UHGV virus genome: UHGV-0076293
Strand: one strand, 5' to 3'
Length of the DNA: 64,000 nt
Source of the DNA: a virus
Below the pieces are notes generated by a model. That model did no database searches, was not told the origin of the DNA, and was given only the letters and a program-made list of their open reading frames with translations. A program made the position numbers and the translations under genes. Each line of letters opens with the position of its first letter. Position 1 is the first letter of the stretch. Below, piece after piece: positions 13,537 through 46,793 of this stretch.

Positions 13537-14046
13537 ATGGCAACCAAAGACATTTCTACCCAAGATGCTCGCCCTGCTGCTGTTAAGCGCTCCGCAGAAG
13601 CGGCAGTAACTTATAGCCAAGATGACTCTTATCAGGTAAACCTTATTGCTGCACAGTTAGACGAAGCAGGGAATACCATCGGTACCAACAAACCGAAAAA
13701 CACGCCGGAAGCAGACGACGCTTTCCGTAAACTGCATCAGTCTTTCCGTAGCCTGTTTGAACTGCGTGGTCAGGCGTTTATCGACGCTTTTAACGTTTTC
13801 GTTGCTGCTGCGATTAAACACAAGCGTAGCATCTTCTATTACCCGAATGTGAACTACCACCTGGATTGGTTCCACGATTCTGCTGAACGTGAAACTTACG
13901 TGGTGTTTATCAACATGCTGGTACGTTTTGCTAACTCTCAAGATAAAGCAAACTTCGCACAGCGTGACAACGTTAACCGTCTGCTGCAACGCGTAGCTGA
14001 CCCAGAGCTGCAACAGCTGCTGGCATACTGCTTCAACGCGGCTTAA
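13537..14046 (+). CDS. hypothetical, probably abundant protein (169 aa)
   Basis: ATG with AAGGA RBS; codon usage appears host-optimised by eye; followed by conserved terminator element. Confidence 0.55.
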   Translation: MATKDISTQDARPAAVKRSAEAAVTYSQDDSYQVNLIAAQLDEAGNTIGTNKPKNTPEADDAFRKLHQSFRSLFELRGQAFIDAFNVFVAAAIKHKRSIFYYPNVNYHLDWFHDSAERETYVVFINMLVRFANSQDKANFAQRDNVNRLLQRVADPELQQLLAYCFNAA

Positions 14047-14049
14047 TAA

Positions 14050-14098
14050 GCTTTACCCTACTCCTCTCGGGAGTAGGGTAGCTTTTATTTTTTCTTAG
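14050..14098 (+). repeat. conserved ~45-nt terminator element, copy 1 (ccctactcc-tctcg-ggagtaggg-tagcttttattttttcttag)
   Basis: Near-identical copy at 19417-19465, differing only in loop bases; both between convergent genes. Confidence 0.7.
14056..14094 (+). terminator. intrinsic terminator within repeat copy 1
   Basis: 9-bp stem, 5-nt loop, T-rich tract. Confidence 0.65.
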
Positions 14099-15876
14099 TG
14101 AGTGGTTTTGATGTATTCAAACGGATCGGTAACGGCTTCTCCCTGACGACGTAAGAATGCTTCTAACACAACGTTCTTATCTGGCAGTAAGAAGAAGTCC
14201 GTTGCGATTTCCATTGCATTAACACGCCCTGCGGTAAGGTTAATCCCTACACGACGTCGTACTTCTTCAGGAACACCATGAATGCTCAGCAACTCGATTA
14301 ACGTTGTTTCACGAGACTGGTTCATCATGTTCGTTGCAGAAGGATACGCCTGGGTTAAGTCCGCATCTGCGGTTTGCCCACGGAATGCAGTGTAGAAATC
14401 ATCAAACTCTTTAATGATTCCTCGCAGACCGTTTTCCGCGTTCATACACGCAGTTAACGTAACAATCCAACCGTCCGTACCGATAACTTCTTCATCGAAA
14501 TCATTACGCATTGCACTGCCTACACAACCGATAACCAACCCTTGTTCATAAAGGTAATAGGTGTAAGCAATACAAATACGTTTTGGTAACGAAGGGAAGA
14601 TATCGTACATCGAATAACCCGCCAGTACGGAAATTGCCGAAGACAAGTCGTTCGTTTTTTTATCCAACAACACAATCATCAGGTTATCGAAGATGTTATA
14701 AACGCAGTATTCGAGCGGGAACTCTTTCTGTGCTTTTAAGTGCCATTCCAGTTTCTCCTCGTAAGGCAGTTCTGGCAAGTCTAACTTGTTTAAGCCCAGT
14801 TCAGTTTCCAGAATAGCGTTAAGTTTGTAAGAAGGACGTTGGCCTTCGTGAACACGCAGTGAACGAAACAGACACATTGCATCCACACAGTAGAACGATG
14901 CGGTACAATAAAGTACGTGCCACTGTTGTGAAGGTGCTTTGGTCAGTGATTTCGATTCCGTTTTCTTCGATGCTTCGTCTTTCTTGAAGTAAACACGACG
15001 GTATTGCTTCGGTACATCAGGATGACAAAAGACGTCTTCCGGTGGAATCCCTGCGGCTTCTAGCGCTTCTAACATACGTGAAATATCGAACTCGTGGTTC
15101 CATGCAACTAATAAGTCAGGTAGCCGAGGGTGAATCTCTTCAAACATGCGTTGAATACAGCAGCCAGAGTTTAAGCATTCGTAAACGAAGATTTTATATC
15201 CGGCAATAACGTCTTTGATTTCAGTATTAGGATTACCTTCTTTGTCTTTGCCACGAAAAGCAATTTTAGAAAGTAACTCCTTCGCACGTTTAATTAGTCG
15301 CGCTTCGAAGTTCTCACGACCACAACGCGTAACGTAGTCTTTCGTTGCGAAGAAATGAATTTCGTCATCCAAAACAAAACTCATAATCCAAGGGTCTCGA
15401 GATTTGTCTTCTTCTCGAGTTTCCACGTCGTATACACAAATACGGTTAGGTGAAACAGCGTTAGGCCATTTCTTTACATACCTTTCTTTAATCCAGCTGG
15501 TGATAGGTAAGTCAGCCCAGTAAACGTACGGAGAGGTACAGACTTGACGTAATGAACGTTTTTTGTCAGGAAATCTTGCCCCTAGACCCATTTGAATGGT
15601 TTGTGACATCATCACATCCGTGGTCATGTATTCCTGACACTTACTGCGTTCTTCGTATTCTTTCTTTTCTTGATGGTTACGGTGTTGTGGTAAAGTAATG
15701 TAGATAGGCCGTTTCAGATTTTCACGCATGACGATACGCGGGATGAATCTGCCATCTTTAGTATGGACGACCTCCTTTATGAGCACGAAGTCGTTTTCTT
15801 TCTGCTGATCGGTTGCGTACGAAACAAATTTGCACTCTTTGGCAATAACGTCTTCCGGTGCGTAATAGTTATTCAT
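14095..15876 (-). CDS. DnaQ-like 3'-5' exonuclease-domain protein, possibly the exonuclease part of a split family-B DNA polymerase
   Basis: Exo I-like VYDVETRE (DxE), Exo II-like AWNHEFDISRML, Exo III-like YCVYNIFD; start ambiguous (ATG at 15876 or 15975, TTG at 15990; the latter two overlap the divergent gene). Confidence 0.5.
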   Translation of the reverse strand: MNNYYAPEDVIAKECKFVSYATDQQKENDFVLIKEVVHTKDGRFIPRIVMRENLKRPIYITLPQHRNHQEKKEYEERSKCQEYMTTDVMMSQTIQMGLGARFPDKKRSLRQVCTSPYVYWADLPITSWIKERYVKKWPNAVSPNRICVYDVETREEDKSRDPWIMSFVLDDEIHFFATKDYVTRCGRENFEARLIKRAKELLSKIAFRGKDKEGNPNTEIKDVIAGYKIFVYECLNSGCCIQRMFEEIHPRLPDLLVAWNHEFDISRMLEALEAAGIPPEDVFCHPDVPKQYRRVYFKKDEASKKTESKSLTKAPSQQWHVLYCTASFYCVDAMCLFRSLRVHEGQRPSYKLNAILETELGLNKLDLPELPYEEKLEWHLKAQKEFPLEYCVYNIFDNLMIVLLDKKTNDLSSAISVLAGYSMYDIFPSLPKRICIAYTYYLYEQGLVIGCVGSAMRNDFDEEVIGTDGWIVTLTACMNAENGLRGIIKEFDDFYTAFRGQTADADLTQAYPSATNMMNQSRETTLIELLSIHGVPEEVRRRVGINLTAGRVNAMEIATDFFLLPDKNVVLEAFLRRQGEAVTDPFEYIKTTH

Positions 15877-15947
15877 GTTTTCACTCTCAAATCTAGCGGC
15901 TGCTATACTGATTTGTGGGTAATGTAATTTCTCAAAAGGAATCACAA

Positions 15948-17282
15948 ATGGGATATTGGCAAAATCACATTGCATCAGTTGCGGATGCAAAGGTTGTAGC
16001 CGCAGAATCGATTAAATTCCAAGATAAAAAGAAACTCGCAGAACTGGCAGACATTATTGCTAAATTTCGTGCAGCCGGAGACTTTAGTCCGGCCGGTTAC
16101 GAGAGTTCTGGTGTTTCTGATTGGGTATTTAAAACCAACGGTATTAGCATTAACTTTAAGAACGGTAGCGAACTCGGATTATTCGACGTTGCCTTCGCGG
16201 GTGTAGAACCGCCTAAACTGGACGCGAATAGTCCGGTAATTGCGTCAATGGCGCGTGCACTGTACGCAGGTAATAAAGACCTGGACATGTACAGTAAGTT
16301 TATTAAAGAAAACGAACTGAACAGCAGCATTGACGATTCCAGTGCGAAAATCAGCGGTGACTTGAGCAAAGTCAGTTCTCCGCTTTACCTGACTCCGGTG
16401 CTGTTGGGGAAACTGGAGCTCACCGATTTGGAGGTTGCTTCGGTAATCCTTCATGAAGTCGGTCACATTTATTATTACTTCCGTACGCTGATGCGTACCG
16501 TGGTAACGGATTTACTGGCAGACGCTGCGGCTAACCGAATCATGGAAAGCGAAGACCCAGCTGTTCGTTTACGTGTGGTTAAAGACGTTGAACGAATGCT
16601 GAACACGAAAGTGAATCAGCCAGAGACCATCTGCACTGAGTACAAGAAAGAAAACGTCTACATGCACCTGGTAACAGATTTGCTGTTAGACCGTCCGTTC
16701 ATTAGCGGTAGTCAAGGCTTTGCAAACCGTACCTGGGAACGTGCTGCTGACGACTTCGCTGCCCGCTTTGGTGCTGCCCCGTACTTAGCTTCTGCACTGT
16801 ACAAAATGGAAACCAGCCCGTTCTATCTACTGCGTAACTCGTCGTATATGAACATGGGTGTCCATTTGACGATTGAGTTGTTCCGTGTGACTGCGCTGAT
16901 TGCCCAAGCTGCCATTCCGATTCTTCCGGTTATCTCTGTTACGTTTGGGATGATTCTGAACGACCCAGATAACACCATCTACGATCCGCCGCAGGAACGT
17001 TTTGAAGCGATGCGCCGTACGCTGGTAGAAGAACTGAATACCATCAAAGACAAAAACACGAAAGCGGCTAACGAGCAACGTAAACGTATTCTGGATGGTA
17101 TCGCGGTAATTGATCGAATTCTACTCACGGTTAAAGACAAAGATAACCTGTATCAGTTTATCTGGAAGACGCTGACACCGAAAGGGCGTCGTGACCGTGC
17201 TGCGGTGGATTATCAGCGCGCTATCGGGAAGTATATGTCGAATGACCTCCGTATCGCATCTGCCATGTTTAACGTCGATTAA
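15948..17282 (+). CDS. putative zinc metallopeptidase (HExxH)
   Basis: VILHEVGHIYYYF zincin-like motif; ATG with AAGGAA RBS. Confidence 0.45.
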   Translation: MGYWQNHIASVADAKVVAAESIKFQDKKKLAELADIIAKFRAAGDFSPAGYESSGVSDWVFKTNGISINFKNGSELGLFDVAFAGVEPPKLDANSPVIASMARALYAGNKDLDMYSKFIKENELNSSIDDSSAKISGDLSKVSSPLYLTPVLLGKLELTDLEVASVILHEVGHIYYYFRTLMRTVVTDLLADAAANRIMESEDPAVRLRVVKDVERMLNTKVNQPETICTEYKKENVYMHLVTDLLLDRPFISGSQGFANRTWERAADDFAARFGAAPYLASALYKMETSPFYLLRNSSYMNMGVHLTIELFRVTALIAQAAIPILPVISVTFGMILNDPDNTIYDPPQERFEAMRRTLVEELNTIKDKNTKAANEQRKRILDGIAVIDRILLTVKDKDNLYQFIWKTLTPKGRRDRAAVDYQRAIGKYMSNDLRIASAMFNVD

Positions 17283-45017: not shown

Positions 45018-46793
45018 GTGTTTAAAGATGCAATCAGAAAGCTTAAAGAGGATGGCAAAATAGTACCCTTTAACCGAGCGATTGCGGAAGGTGTCGGTTA
45101 TACCCAGGCCAAAGATGGTATACACGAACGTGTTCAGATTATCTTGAAACGTGAGCTGGATTATCATCCTGTTGATAATCCGCGTGTTCCTGAAGGGCTG
45201 GCTGTATTAGGTGTACGGTTAATGTCGCCGTTTGAAACGTTCATCTATAAGCTGTCTCGTTCTGAGAGCAGCAGAATGGATAGACGCCGTGGTGTGATGT
45301 CCATTGCGAACACCGATGCGTATATGGTCATGTCAACATTCCGTATTCCAGGAGATTCTCGACCGATCTCAAGACCGATTAACTTACCCTTTATCCGTCG
45401 TGGTGGTTTAATGAACTATTACGGTACGACGTATCACGTTGCGCCGGTTATTCACCAGCCAGGTATCTGTCGCGAACACGGTGGGGTATTTGTTAACTTT
45501 GACTTTAAACGTAAAGCCTCGTTGAAATTCTGTAAGCAACCTGTCCGTGTGTTAGTCAACGGTAAAAAAGAGGAGCTATTCTTACCAGGAACCAAAAACC
45601 TGTTCAAAGCGAAGAACGCAACACATCCCGATACTGACGAGAAACCGTTAATGTATTGGTTGTTCGGACGTTACGGATTTAAAGAAGCGATTAAACGCTA
45701 TACTGGTGTTGACGTAGAAATTTATCCATCGTTTAAGATCCCAGAACTCGATCTCAACGAGAAAGTTGTAATCAGTTCCGGTGAATCGAAATATAACCGT
45801 TCGATAATGTACGCGGTTGTCGTACCCGCAGAAGCATTGCCGAACGTGGATAAAGTCGGTTGGGATCAAAACGAGCATTTATTGCTGGCTGCAATTGCTG
45901 CGTTCTTCAAAGCTGCTCACTACTATTGCAGTAAACAATCTATTAAGAACGGTAACGTCACACCGCTGCCGCCGCTGTTTACCGCAATTAACGAGTTAGC
46001 GATGGAAGACGATATTGCTAATCTGAACTCTGCTCCGATTTGGCGTGAGATTCTGGGAAGAAGTATCGTAGGACTGAAACCTTCCGATATTGAGTTAGCG
46101 CACAGTATGGCGAAACACTATACTGAATGTGATCGCTATGTTAACTCAACGTTCCGTGCAGAACTGAAGATGACCGATCCCGACATTCCAGACGATATGG
46201 ATATGTTTGATTTCTTCTGGTATGCAACGAAACTGATGGTACGTACCCGTTTGACCAAACAGGGCGACATTCCGTCGATGTACGGAAAACGTTTAACCGT
46301 AACTGACTACTTACTGTTAGGTGACCGTGGGTTTACACCAACGGTAGCGGCTATTCGTTTCCAGCTGGGACAAACGGAGAACCGTTCGCCGGAATCCTGC
46401 GCGAATATGATTCGTAGCGCACTCAATAAAGAAATTGTCACGAGTCTGGTACTGCGTAATATCACCGGTAATGGCGGTGTAAGTTATTTTAACGCATCAA
46501 CAGAATCCATGGTGTTAGGAGTATCCACACACGCGATCAGTCAAACTGAAACGGAATCTAAACGCAACAGCAAGGGCGGTAAAACGGTTAACCTTAACGA
46601 CCGTACGAAACACGCTTCTGCATCGCATCTGGAGTGCGGTAACGTTTATTATATTCCGAAATCGTCCCCGTTCAAATGGGGTGTCCTTAACCCGTATATG
46701 AAAACTAACCGTCAGTTAGTGATGGTTCGTAATCCAAAACTTGACGAGTTAATCCAAGCAACTGAAGAAGACATTGCGAAGATTGGCCGTTAA
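45018..46793 (+). CDS. hypothetical protein (591 aa), GTG start
   Basis: TAAGGAG RBS 7 nt upstream of GTG. Confidence 0.5.
   Translation: MFKDAIRKLKEDGKIVPFNRAIAEGVGYTQAKDGIHERVQIILKRELDYHPVDNPRVPEGLAVLGVRLMSPFETFIYKLSRSESSRMDRRRGVMSIANTDAYMVMSTFRIPGDSRPISRPINLPFIRRGGLMNYYGTTYHVAPVIHQPGICREHGGVFVNFDFKRKASLKFCKQPVRVLVNGKKEELFLPGTKNLFKAKNATHPDTDEKPLMYWLFGRYGFKEAIKRYTGVDVEIYPSFKIPELDLNEKVVISSGESKYNRSIMYAVVVPAEALPNVDKVGWDQNEHLLLAAIAAFFKAAHYYCSKQSIKNGNVTPLPPLFTAINELAMEDDIANLNSAPIWREILGRSIVGLKPSDIELAHSMAKHYTECDRYVNSTFRAELKMTDPDIPDDMDMFDFFWYATKLMVRTRLTKQGDIPSMYGKRLTVTDYLLLGDRGFTPTVAAIRFQLGQTENRSPESCANMIRSALNKEIVTSLVLRNITGNGGVSYFNASTESMVLGVSTHAISQTETESKRNSKGGKTVNLNDRTKHASASHLECGNVYYIPKSSPFKWGVLNPYMKTNRQLVMVRNPKLDELIQATEEDIAKIGR

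What the first reader, a model, noticed from the sequence alone, without database searches (positions are those of the whole stretch)
14095..15990. DnaQ-like exonuclease-domain protein without recognisable polymerase motifs, overlapping a divergent gene start
Exo I/II/III-like motifs are present, but I could not find family-B polymerase motifs (DxxSLYPS, KxxxNSxYG, YGDTDS) in the 631 aa, suggesting a stand-alone proofreading exonuclease or the exonuclease half of a split polymerase. With the ATG at 15975 or TTG at 15990 its 5' end overlaps the divergent metallopeptidase gene (ATG 15948); only the downstream ATG at 15876 avoids this.
Basis: partly seen in the sequence, partly recalled or inferred. 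Interest (0 to 1): 0.4.

Follow-up and report, generated by a model that had tools for sequence, protein, structure and literature searches.

The report
Exonuclease-bearing half of split phage polymerase
This gene encodes the proofreading half of a two-piece DNA polymerase that phiKZ-like giant phages are already known to have, but this half also seems to carry one essential piece (motif A) of the DNA-copying active site, so it is probably not just an accessory.

Summary
The ORF is real, but its start is ATG 15876 (593 aa), not TTG 15990 or ATG 15975, so it does not overlap the divergent gene (ATG 15948). The window comes from a phiKZ-like jumbo phage: a human-gut contig that is 97.9% identical to a 222-kb E. 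coli "plasmid". The protein is the SPN3US gp44 / Asesino gp61 homolog, the known exonuclease-bearing subunit of the split, divergent family-B DNA polymerase of these phages.

Pfam and NCBIfam find nothing directly. PHROG 3011 matches end to end (E = 1e-251). A profile-profile comparison with T4/RB69 gp43 gives 98.5% probability (E = 2e-15), and Foldseek puts RB69 gp43 first (E = 1e-12). All five DEDDy exonuclease residues are invariant.

Motifs B and C lie on the partner (Pfam PF20286), 26.8 kb away in the sister genome and outside this window. The partner has no invariant, correctly placed motif A aspartate, and the published candidate (EL D229) is Asn in 6 of 29 relatives. AF2 models both halves confidently except at motif A and motif C. 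The catalytic palm is therefore probably assembled from both chains. This is a new member of a known kind and of modest interest.

The parts
14095..15876 (-). CDS of the 593-aa N-terminal (exonuclease-bearing) subunit of the split phiKZ-type family-B DNA polymerase. It starts at ATG 15876 and stops with TAA at 14095-14097.
   Evidence: PHROG 3011 'DNA polymerase' matches at E = 1.1e-251 over residues 41-621 of the 631-aa ORF. The 99%-identical P0001 is 593 aa, and homologs are 580-600 aa. Gene calls on the source contig and in NZ_CP173450.1 give 593 aa. hhalign against T4-type PolB gives 98.5% probability.
15877..15990 (-). Open-frame extension upstream of the real start (TTG 15990, ATG 15975). 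It is most likely untranslated. Positions 15877-15947 are the 71-bp divergent intergenic region, and 15948-15990 lie antisense to the start of the neighbouring gene.
   Evidence: The extension is not conserved in Asesino beyond the conserved intergenic DNA. Neither alternative start has a Shine-Dalgarno sequence, whereas ATG 15876 has GAGAG 7 nt upstream. The intergenic region is 79% identical to Asesino, against 63-70% in the flanking coding ends.
14512..15876 (-). Residues 1-455: PolB N-terminal domain plus the 3'-5' exonuclease domain, which fold confidently on their own.
   Evidence: In the AF2 model, pLDDT is mostly above 90 for residues 1-455. Foldseek puts RB69 gp43 first at E = 9.7e-13 over about 470 columns.
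15418..15441 (-). Exo I motif (residues 146-153, 'ICVYDVET'). The catalytic residues are D150 and E152.
   Evidence: Both are invariant in 33 of 33 homologs. They align with RB69 D114 and E116.
15085..15099 (-). Exo II motif (N260-H-E-F-D264).
   Evidence: N260 is invariant, and D264 is D in 32 of 33 homologs and E in one. The motif aligns with RB69 'WNVESFD', ending at D222.
14686..14700 (-). Exo III motif (Y393-N-I-F-D397). This is the DEDDy type.
   Evidence: Y393 and D397 are invariant. They align with RB69 Y323 and D327.
14338..14367 (-). Polymerase motif A (D504-A-D506-L-T-Q-A-Y511-P512-S513). D506 is the predicted metal-binding Asp, and Y511 is the predicted sugar steric gate.
   Evidence: D504, D506, Y511 and P512 are invariant in 33 of 33 homologs. 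The motif aligns with RB69 'FDLTSLYPS' (D411, Y416) by HMMER and by hhalign. The slice 490-593 alone finds it at E = 7e-5. Motif A lies inside one of the model's segments with pLDDT below 50 (residues 494-531).
14098..14289 (-). C-terminal tail, residues 530-593. It is helical and has no counterpart in RB69. It is the proposed docking 'handle' for the partner subunit.
   Evidence: The hhalign block ends at target residue 529 and RB69 residue 434. The 525-593 slice aligns to nothing. The model shows helices 537-591 with pLDDT 45-78. R541, G550 and P565 are nearly invariant and N553 is invariant.
14053..14095 (+). Terminator-like hairpin (13-bp stem, 14053-14081) followed by a T-run, in the 48-bp gap between the convergent gene 13537-14046(+) and the stop codon of this gene.
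   Evidence: Found by the pattern scan and confirmed in the sequence. Such hairpins are no more frequent in this region than in shuffled sequence, so its function is inferred.
15948..17282 (+). Divergent neighbour gene (444 aa, starting at ATG 15948). It has an HEVGH motif. Relatives annotate it as a virion structural protein.
   Evidence: PHROG 2767 aligns from residue 12 of the GTG-started ORF. The gene is called at 444 aa on the source contig and in RefSeq. AAGGAA lies 7 nt upstream of the ATG. The Peptidase_M48 match is below threshold (E = 0.007).

Best explanation
The gene (14095-15876, minus strand, 593 aa) encodes the N-terminal subunit of the heterodimeric replicative family-B DNA polymerase of a phiKZ-like (chimallivirus) jumbo phage.

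Residues 1-455 form the PolB N-terminal domain and an active-looking DEDDy 3'-5' proofreading exonuclease. Residues 456-593 carry polymerase motif A (D506 as metal ligand, Y511 as sugar steric gate) and a helical tail specific to this lineage.

The second subunit is about 765 aa (Pfam PF20286). It is encoded about 27 kb away, outside the window, and supplies the fingers (motif B), motif C (SDTDS), the KxY motif and the thumb.

Inferred mechanism: the motif A strand of this protein docks next to the partner's motif C hairpin and completes the palm beta-sheet and the two-metal active site in trans. On this model neither chain can polymerise alone. This protein would then be an obligatory catalytic subunit as well as the proofreader.

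The split maps to about RB69 residues 435-437, between the motif A helix and the hairpin that precedes the fingers. About 64 extra residues on this protein and about 83 on the partner flank the junction and probably hold the two chains together.

Shown here: homology, motif content and conservation, the start codon, and the presence of the partner in the sister genome. Inferred: physical association and assembly of the palm in trans.
For: Identity. PHROG 3011 matches at E = 1e-251. The protein is 80% identical to Asesino gp61, which is annotated 'DNA polymerase', and the gene order is the same. The literature describes SPN3US gp18 + gp44 as a split-subunit polymerase (PMC5694885) and separate exonuclease and polymerase ORFs in EL and phiKZ (PMC3201878; PMC7824862).

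PolB homology. The family profile hits only PolBs in the PDB sequences (68 hits). hhalign against a T4-type profile gives 98.5% probability and E = 2e-15, aligning target 120-529 with RB69 84-434 in one block through Exo I-III and motif A. Foldseek puts RB69 gp43 first at E = 1e-12. Family member P0062 passes the PF03104 threshold.

Motif A belongs here. D504, D506, Y511 and P512 are invariant in 33 of 33 sequences that go down to 24% identity.

The partner lacks motif A.
- Its motif order is B (K157/N161/S164/G165), then C (D419/D421), then KHY497-499.
- It has no invariant acidic residue before motif B.
- The published motif A Asp (EL D229, equivalent to gp35 D226) lies after motif B and is Asn in 6 of 29 relatives.
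- The other invariant Asp, D288, sits in a helix-loop-helix modelled with pLDDT above 95.

Complementary low confidence. AF2 models this protein with pLDDT below 50 at 456-491, 494-531 and 544-552, a region that includes motif A. For the partner, pLDDT is below 50 only at 164-182 and 407-417 and in the C-terminal tail, and motif C is modelled as coil and not as a hairpin.

Conserved architecture. The exhaustive search finds 758 clusters with E below 1e-30. Nearly all of the 150 best hits listed are 550-620 aa, and none is fused to a polymerase domain.

Partner in the sister genome. In the 97.9%-identical genome the partner is RS25520, 'family B DNA polymerase', 26.8 kb away, next to the SH3 protein.

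Precedent. Natural and engineered PolB splits downstream of motif A are active, and the C-fragment of split Pfu folds only in the presence of the N-fragment (PMC3061061). T4-like phages have 502-aa N-fragments carrying both PF03104 and PF00136.
Against: - No complex model or experiment was possible, so association and the trans-assembled palm are inferred from sequence and from single-chain AF2 confidence, which is circumstantial.
- Two published analyses place a complete palm on the polymerase subunit (PMC3201878; PMC7824862).
- The partner's alignments to canonical PolB are individually weak: hhalign 27% probability, 2.6-4.5% for the sliced alignments, and HMMER E = 0.0055 against Pol zeta.
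- Partner D77 is acidic in 28 of 29 sequences and lies in a beta-hairpin turn, and D288 is invariant. Neither is strictly excluded as a substitute ligand.
- Direct Pfam and NCBIfam scans of the target are negative.
- I could not read Cornelissen et al. 2012, which may already describe where the split falls.
- The partner gene was seen in a 97.9%-identical genome, not on this contig.
Confidence: 0.75

Rival explanations
1. The protein is an accessory proofreading subunit only. On this reading the partner (PF20286) contains a complete catalytic palm, as drawn by Kazlauskas & Venclovas 2011 and Iyer et al. 2021. This protein associates with it only to supply 3'-5' exonuclease activity. Its motif A-like segment is a relic of the ancestral unsplit gene, now used only as a docking peptide.
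For: Published models state that both catalytic aspartates lie on the polymerase chain (PMC3201878). [quoted passage not shown] The partner has an invariant D288 and a nearly invariant D77. The motif A region of this protein is modelled with low confidence, which would also fit a flexible linker.
Against: - The published motif A Asp (EL D229) lies after motif B, out of the canonical order, and is Asn in 6 of 29 relatives.
- D288 lies in a confidently helical insert and not at the end of a strand.
- A relic would not keep D, D, Y and P invariant, together with T524 and E528 in the following NxSxET-like stretch, across homologs down to 24% identity.
- The partner's motif C is not modelled as a hairpin when the chain is folded alone.
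Confidence: 0.18
2. The protein is an independent exonuclease unrelated to replication fidelity. It would act alone, for example in degrading host DNA, in recombination or in primer removal, and would not bind the PF20286 polymerase.
For: The two genes are 27 kb apart and on opposite strands. No physical interaction was tested here. Pfam does not recognise the protein.
Against: - The homology to PolB is continuous from the N-terminal domain through motif A. The 140-aa C-terminal region has no role in a free exonuclease, yet it is conserved.
- Dispersal of functionally linked genes is typical of these genomes, as with SbcC/SbcD and the RNAP subunits (PMC5105663).
- The partner lacks any exonuclease domain.
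- In every related phage genome examined here, the two genes occur together: Asesino and NZ_CP173450.1. The literature reports the same for SPN3US and EL.
Confidence: 0.04
3. The long ORF is the real gene: translation starts at TTG 15990 or ATG 15975 and gives a 626-631-aa protein whose 5' end overlaps the divergent neighbour.
For: The frame is open back to 15990 in the window and in the E. coli plasmid copy.
Against: The extension is not conserved in Asesino, has no Shine-Dalgarno sequence, and is not matched by any homolog or by the PHROG profile. Gene calls on the source contig and in RefSeq both choose 593 aa.
Confidence: 0.03

Closest known systems
SPN3US gp44 / Erwinia phage Asesino gp61 / phage EL exonuclease ORF (gi 82700984): the exonuclease-bearing subunit of the phiKZ-type split PolB (PHROG 3011)
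   Same: Homologous from end to end (80% identity to Asesino gp61) and of the same length. The gene context is the same: it follows the vRNAP beta' fragment and lies divergent to a virion-protein gene. The partner is of the same PF20286 type and is encoded far away.
   Different: Nothing differs in kind. This is a new species-level member from a human-gut / E. coli-associated phage, about 74% identical at the nucleotide level to the nearest phage in the collection searched. RefSeq annotates the 97.9%-identical copy as 'hypothetical protein'.
RB69 / T4 gp43 (unsplit family-B replicative polymerase)
   Same: It has the same N-terminal domain, the same DEDDy exonuclease and the same motif A, in the same order. 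RB69 gp43 is the best structural match for both subunits.
   Different: gp43 is a single 903-aa chain. Here the chain ends about 20 residues after the motif A helix and continues with a 64-aa tail that gp43 lacks. The fingers, motif C and thumb are on a second protein, which also has an insert of about 200 aa between motifs B and C.
Naturally split gp43 (43A/43B) of T4-like phages 133, 44RR, 31, 25 and 65 and of Acinetobacter phages (Petrov et al. 2006 and 2010, as cited in PMC3061061)
   Same: The N-fragment carries the exonuclease and motif A, and the C-fragment carries motifs B and C, so the active site is made by two chains.
   Different: Those splits lie at the fingertip, at about RB69 residue 500. 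The two genes are adjacent (2 bp to 3 kb apart), and the sequences remain easily recognisable to Pfam. Here the split is about 65 residues earlier, inside the palm, the genes are 27 kb apart on opposite strands, and both halves have diverged beyond the reach of Pfam's PolB models.
Split PolB of Methanobacterium thermoautotrophicum (Kelman et al. 1999), the predicted N/palm split of phage RM378, and the engineered split Pfu (PMC3061061)
   Same: They show that PolBs tolerate being cut into two chains that reassemble into an active enzyme. In split Pfu, the C-fragment needs the N-fragment in order to fold.
   Different: [quoted passage not shown] None is cut between motif A and the hairpin that precedes the fingers.
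DnaQ / epsilon-type stand-alone proofreading exonuclease
   Same: It belongs to the DEDD exonuclease superfamily and has the same three Exo motifs.
   Different: Epsilon is a small DEDDh protein with a single domain. This protein is DEDDy, has 593 aa, includes the PolB N-terminal domain and motif A, and is collinear with a PolB.

Membership tests
Family-B DNA polymerase, N-terminal + 3'-5' exonuclease module (DEDDy) | Exo I motif DxE with both carboxylates | tested here: met
   D150 and E152 are invariant in 33 of 33 homologs and align with RB69 D114 and E116.
Family-B DNA polymerase, N-terminal + 3'-5' exonuclease module (DEDDy) | Exo II motif Nx2-3(F/Y)D | tested here: met
   N260-HEF-D264 aligns with RB69 WNVESFD (D222). 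N260 is invariant and D264 is D in 32 of 33.
Family-B DNA polymerase, N-terminal + 3'-5' exonuclease module (DEDDy) | Exo III motif YxxxD (Tyr, not His) | tested here: met
   Y393 and D397 are invariant and align with RB69 Y323 and D327.
Family-B DNA polymerase, N-terminal + 3'-5' exonuclease module (DEDDy) | Direct match to the curated profile (Pfam PF03104 DNA_pol_B_exo1) above the gathering score | tested here: not met
   There is no Pfam or NCBIfam hit for the target, even at E up to 10 for Pfam. The distant family member P0062 does pass (26.8 bits against a cutoff of 23).
Family-B DNA polymerase, N-terminal + 3'-5' exonuclease module (DEDDy) | Profile-profile and fold similarity to a solved PolB | tested here: met
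   hhalign gives 98.5% probability, E = 2e-15. HMMER with the family profile finds 68 PolB chains. Foldseek puts RB69 gp43 first at E = 1e-12.
Complete family-B DNA polymerase (single-chain catalytic subunit) | Motif A (DxxSLYPS) | tested here: met
   D506-LTQA-Y511-P512-S513 is invariant at D, Y and P and aligns with RB69 411-418.
Complete family-B DNA polymerase (single-chain catalytic subunit) | Motif B (KxxxNSxYG) in the fingers | tested here: not met
   Motif B is absent from the ORF and from all six frames of the window. It is present on the partner family as K157xxxN161xxS164G165.
Complete family-B DNA polymerase (single-chain catalytic subunit) | Motif C (DTD) and thumb | tested here: not met
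   Both are absent from the ORF and the window. Motif C is present on the partner as S418-D-T-D-S422.
phiKZ-type (chimallivirus) split PolB, exonuclease-bearing subunit (PHROG 3011; SPN3US gp44-like) | End-to-end homology to the family | tested here: met
   PHROG 3011 matches at E = 1.1e-251, covering profile positions 2-573 of 576. The exhaustive search finds 758 clusters with E below 1e-30.
phiKZ-type (chimallivirus) split PolB, exonuclease-bearing subunit (PHROG 3011; SPN3US gp44-like) | Conserved truncation: the chain ends about 90 aa after motif A and is never fused to the fingers, motif C or thumb | tested here: met
   Nearly all of the best 150 representatives are 550-620 aa with the profile matched to their C-terminus. 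The one long outlier (P0310) has only a low-complexity tail.
phiKZ-type (chimallivirus) split PolB, exonuclease-bearing subunit (PHROG 3011; SPN3US gp44-like) | A PF20286 'divergent family B DNA polymerase' partner in the same genome | tested here: met
   The partner is not in the window or on the contig, because the contig starts at window position 1. In the 97.9%-identical genome NZ_CP173450.1 the partner is RS25520, 26.8 kb away. In Asesino it is gp35, which matches PF20286 at E = 3.9e-284.
phiKZ-type (chimallivirus) split PolB, exonuclease-bearing subunit (PHROG 3011; SPN3US gp44-like) | Physical association of the two subunits, and activity that depends on both | not testable with these tools
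   The structure tool does not predict complexes. No biochemistry or structure was found in the held literature or in the PDB sequences.
Stand-alone DnaQ/epsilon-like proofreading exonuclease | Small single-domain DEDDh protein without polymerase-derived segments | tested here: not met
   The protein has 593 aa, a DEDDy Exo III motif (Tyr), the PolB N-terminal domain and motif A.

The most novel reading that the evidence does not exclude
In all phiKZ-type (chimallivirus) phages, the polymerase active site itself is built from two polypeptides whose genes lie tens of kilobases apart. The motif A aspartate and the steric-gate tyrosine sit on the 'exonuclease' subunit, and motifs B and C sit on the PF20286 subunit. 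The cut falls inside the palm, at about RB69 residues 435-437, a position not among the natural PolB splits catalogued in PMC3061061. Lineage-specific 'handles' of about 64 and about 83 residues lie on the two sides of the junction. The published assignment of both catalytic aspartates to the polymerase subunit (EL D229) would then be wrong, and the 'exonuclease' gene would be essential for DNA synthesis and not only for fidelity.
Probability: 0.65. Interest if true: 0.45.

Novelty: new member of a known kind. Interest (0 to 1): 0.33.

Why it matters
For annotation. RefSeq labels the 97.9%-identical copy of this gene 'hypothetical protein', and other phage records variously call their homologs 'DNA polymerase' or 'T4-like DNA polymerase'. 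It should be named as the N-terminal (exonuclease + motif A) subunit of the split family-B DNA polymerase, with its start at ATG 15876.

For biology. If motif A really acts in trans, the replicase of nucleus-forming jumbo phages is an obligate heterodimer. Both chains would have to be imported into the phage nucleus, either chain could be a target for inhibition or for host defence, and attempts to express the 'polymerase' subunit alone would fail. This would also correct a motif assignment made in 2011, when only three sequences were known.

None of this changes the general picture. A split, divergent PolB in these phages is already established.

Tried and rejected
1. ORF 45018-46793 (PHROG 2943, 'polymerase') as the missing polymerase half. 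Rejected: it is the phiKZ gp123-type subunit of the non-virion RNA polymerase (PDB 7OGP, E = 1e-17).

2. Six-frame regex search of the window for motifs B and C. Nothing credible was found. PHROG scans of 26 window ORFs, mostly the largest, found no second DNA-polymerase gene.

3. Direct Pfam and NCBIfam scans and a single-sequence PDB search of the target gave only noise.

4. Search for unsplit (fused) relatives, which would show the junction directly. None was found among the best 150 of 1,938 hits. The 894-aa outlier P0310 has only an acidic, low-complexity tail. All 120 partner homologs listed are also unfused.

5. Partner D288 ('FVYxGD') as motif A. Rejected: it lies after motif B, in a confidently modelled helical insert, and its only (non-significant) resemblance is to the motif C strand.

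6. EL D229, the motif A Asp of Kazlauskas & Venclovas. Rejected: it maps to gp35 D226, lies after motif B, and is Asn in 6 of 29 relatives.

7. The partner's N-terminal 'RDIDIIDAYY' as motif A. Rejected: it is not conserved (D17 in 20 of 28 and D19 in 20 of 28).

8. An apparent motif B-like 'RxxxNLTxG' in the target's tail. Rejected: hhalign E = 0.5, and my reading of the alignment shows the Asn column varies.

9. hhalign with a low mact setting gave a greedy, unreliable global alignment, which I discarded.

10. Cornelissen et al. 2012, the original description of the split polymerase, could not be retrieved.

11. The conserved core of the intergenic region as a repeated promoter motif. Rejected: it occurs only once in the window.

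Full report
**What is at the coordinates.** A 631-codon ORF runs from 14095 to 15990 on the minus strand. The window comes from a phiKZ-like (chimallivirus-type) jumbo phage. It encodes split virion and non-virion RNA-polymerase subunits, a phiKZ-type major head protein and a divergent DnaB helicase. Its nearest relatives in the phage collection are Erwinia phage Asesino and its kin and the Salmonella SPN3US-like phages, at about 74% nucleotide identity.

The exact protein is on record on a 93-kb human-gut metagenome contig (ERR526064 k127_25760), at the same coordinates as in the window, so the window is the first 64 kb of that contig. A 97.9%-identical copy lies on a 221,873-bp circular 'plasmid' of a urinary E. 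coli isolate (NZ_CP173450.1). That record is evidently the whole phage genome.

**Start codon.**
- Homologs are 580-600 aa, and the 99%-identical database protein is 593 aa.
- PHROG 3011 aligns from residue 41 of the 631-aa ORF.
- Gene calls on the source contig and in RefSeq give 593 aa for this gene and 444 aa for the neighbour.
- Upstream of ATG 15876, the in-frame translations of the window and Asesino agree only over the conserved intergenic DNA and then diverge because of an indel. TTG 15990 and ATG 15975 have no Shine-Dalgarno sequence, whereas ATG 15876 has GAGAG 7 nt upstream and the neighbour's ATG 15948 has AAGGAA.

The real arrangement is two divergent genes separated by 71 bp, against 72 bp in Asesino. 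There is no overlap.

**What the protein is.** More sensitive tests overturn it.
- PHROG 3011 ('DNA polymerase') matches end to end at E = 1e-251.
- A profile of 33 homologs hits 68 PDB sequences, all of them family-B polymerases. For RB69 gp43 there are three collinear segments.
- hhalign against a profile of 18 T4-type gp43 sequences gives 98.5% probability and E = 2e-15. It aligns target residues 120-529 with RB69 84-434 in one block.
- The AF2 model has mean pLDDT 81.5, mostly above 90 for residues 1-455. Foldseek finds RB69 gp43 first at E = 1e-12 over about 470 columns.
- A distant family member, P0062, passes Pfam's own threshold for DNA_pol_B_exo1.
- The five DEDDy residues (D150, E152, D264, Y393, D397) are invariant or nearly so and align with RB69 D114, E116, D222, Y323 and D327.

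The exonuclease looks active.

The C-terminal quarter contains 'DADLTQAYPSATNMMNQSRETT' (nt 14338-14367 for the core). It aligns with RB69 '[23 protein letters not shown]', which is motif A. Target D506 corresponds to the metal-binding D411 and Y511 to the steric-gate Y416. Residues 490-593 alone find this motif at E = 7e-5. D504, D506, Y511, P512, T524 and E528 are invariant in all 33 homologs, down to 24% identity. Motifs B and C are absent from this ORF and from the whole window.

**The other half.** The only window ORF that PHROGs labels 'polymerase' (45018-46793) is the phiKZ gp123-type RNA-polymerase subunit. By synteny with Asesino, the partner (gp35, 761 aa, Pfam PF20286 'divergent family B DNA polymerase', E = 3.9e-284) lies about 28 kb upstream of the target, which is before the start of the window and of the contig. 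In the 97.9%-identical E. coli 'plasmid' the partner is RS25520 (765 aa, 'family B DNA polymerase'). It lies 26.8 kb from the target homolog, on the opposite strand, next to a 'phage DNA polymerase-associated SH3 family protein'.

This matches the literature. SPN3US gp18 and gp44 are a split-subunit polymerase first recognised in phage OBP (PMC5694885). Kazlauskas & Venclovas 2011 found the divergent polymerase and noted the separate exonuclease ORF (PMC3201878). Iyer et al. 2021 describe the unfused exonuclease and the SH3 neighbour (PMC7824862).

**Where the split falls.** In 28-29 diverse partner sequences the invariant motifs come in this order:
- K157xxxN161xxS164G165, which is motif B. 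It aligns with the yeast Pol zeta segment ending in KLLANVTYG and with the RB69 KLLINSLYG region.
- An insert of about 200 residues.
- S418-D-T-D-S422, which is motif C.
- K497-H-Y499, which aligns with the RB69 KKRY region.

Partner residues 84-145 align, weakly but collinearly, with RB69 438-500. The target's aligned block ends at RB69 434. The cut is therefore at about RB69 residues 435-437, inside the palm, between the motif A helix and the hairpin that precedes the fingers. The target's last 64 residues and the partner's first 83 or so have no RB69 counterpart.

The partner has no invariant acidic residue ahead of motif B. The aspartate that Kazlauskas & Venclovas proposed for motif A (EL D229) maps to gp35 D226. 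It lies after motif B and is Asn in 6 of 29 sequences. The other invariant Asp, D288, sits in a helix-loop-helix modelled with pLDDT above 95.

AF2 gives a complementary picture. This protein is confident everywhere except 456-552, the region that includes motif A. The partner (mean pLDDT 82; RB69 again the best Foldseek match) is confident except at 164-182, at 407-417 and in its C-terminal tail, and its motif C is modelled as coil and not as a beta-hairpin.

I infer that the motif A strand of this protein completes the partner's palm sheet in trans. This inference is not shown. No complex could be modelled, and single-chain confidence is only circumstantial evidence.

**How general it is.** An exhaustive profile search of 1.84 billion representatives finds 1,938 hits, 758 of them with E below 1e-30. 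Nearly all of the 150 best hits listed are 550-620 aa, with the profile matched through to their C-terminus. None of the best 150 is fused to a polymerase domain. The truncation is a fixed architecture of the family and not an artefact.

**Comparison with known splits.** PMC3061061 summarises the natural splits:
- T4-like phages are cut at the fingertip, with adjacent genes. One search shows their 502-aa N-fragments, which carry both PF03104 and PF00136.
- Methanobacterium PolB is cut further on in the palm.

An engineered Pfu fingertip split is fully active, and its C-fragment folds only with the N-fragment. The present split works like these, with motif A on the N-fragment. It differs in position, in the distance between the two genes, and in the extra residues at the junction.

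**Verdict.** The gene is a new member of a known kind. The one point that goes beyond the accessible literature, and that contradicts a motif assignment from 2011, is that this subunit probably supplies part of the polymerase active site. That claim is moderately interesting and can be tested directly.

Noticed in passing
window 1-64000; NZ_CP173450.1 (L006): The window is the first 64 kb of a human-gut metagenome contig (ERR526064 k127_25760, 93 kb). A 97.9%-identical jumbo-phage genome is deposited as a circular 221,873-bp 'plasmid' (p98232-contig_4) of a urinary E. coli isolate from Egypt. Nearly all genes in the 42-kb stretch I examined are annotated 'hypothetical protein'. This suggests an E. 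coli host, and a carrier state or co-isolation.
   Followed up: partly
window 45018-46793 (+): This 591-aa ORF matches PHROG 2943, labelled only 'polymerase'. It is the phiKZ gp123-type subunit of the non-virion RNA polymerase (PDB 7OGP, E = 1e-17) and could easily be mistaken for the missing DNA-polymerase half.
   Followed up: yes
window 15948-17282 (+): The divergent neighbour has an HEVGH (HExxH) motif and a sub-threshold Peptidase_M48 match (E = 0.007, 16.6 bits against a cutoff of 20.3). Relatives annotate it as a virion structural protein. It may be a virion-associated metallopeptidase.
   Followed up: partly
window 14053-14095: A 13-bp-stem GC-rich hairpin followed by a T-run fills the 48-bp gap between the convergent gene 13537-14046(+) and the stop codon of the target. 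It looks like an intrinsic terminator for the plus-strand gene, and perhaps acts in both directions.
   Followed up: no
window 15877-15947: The 71-bp divergent intergenic region is better conserved against Asesino (79%, and 86% in its core) than the adjacent coding ends (63-70%). Its core, CCCACAAATCAGTATAGCAGCC, occurs only once in the window. It may be a divergent promoter or regulatory element.
   Followed up: partly
Asesino gp35 (L002:12216-14498) and the partner family (alignment A2): D288, in 'RAAFVYxGD-LYHLAKYN', is invariant in 29 of 29 partner sequences. It lies in the helical insert of about 200 aa between motifs B and C, and its role is unexplained. The motif A aspartate published in 2011 (EL D229) is not conserved: it is Asn in 6 of 29.
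   Followed up: partly
L006:32556-35366 (NZ_CP173450.1 140555-143365): The partner polymerase gene is immediately preceded by a gene that PGAP names 'phage DNA polymerase-associated SH3 family protein'. This conserved pairing was noted by Iyer et al. 2021, and the protein may be a third subunit.
   Followed up: no
P0302 and about 30 similar proteins: Many T4-like Acinetobacter phages encode 502-aa N-terminal fragments of gp43 that carry both PF03104 and PF00136. One is named 'split DNA polymerase' by its source. They serve as natural comparators for a split downstream of motif A.
   Followed up: no
P0310: One family member (894 aa) carries an acidic, alanine-rich, low-complexity C-terminal extension of about 330 aa with no Pfam match. 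Its significance is unknown.
   Followed up: partly
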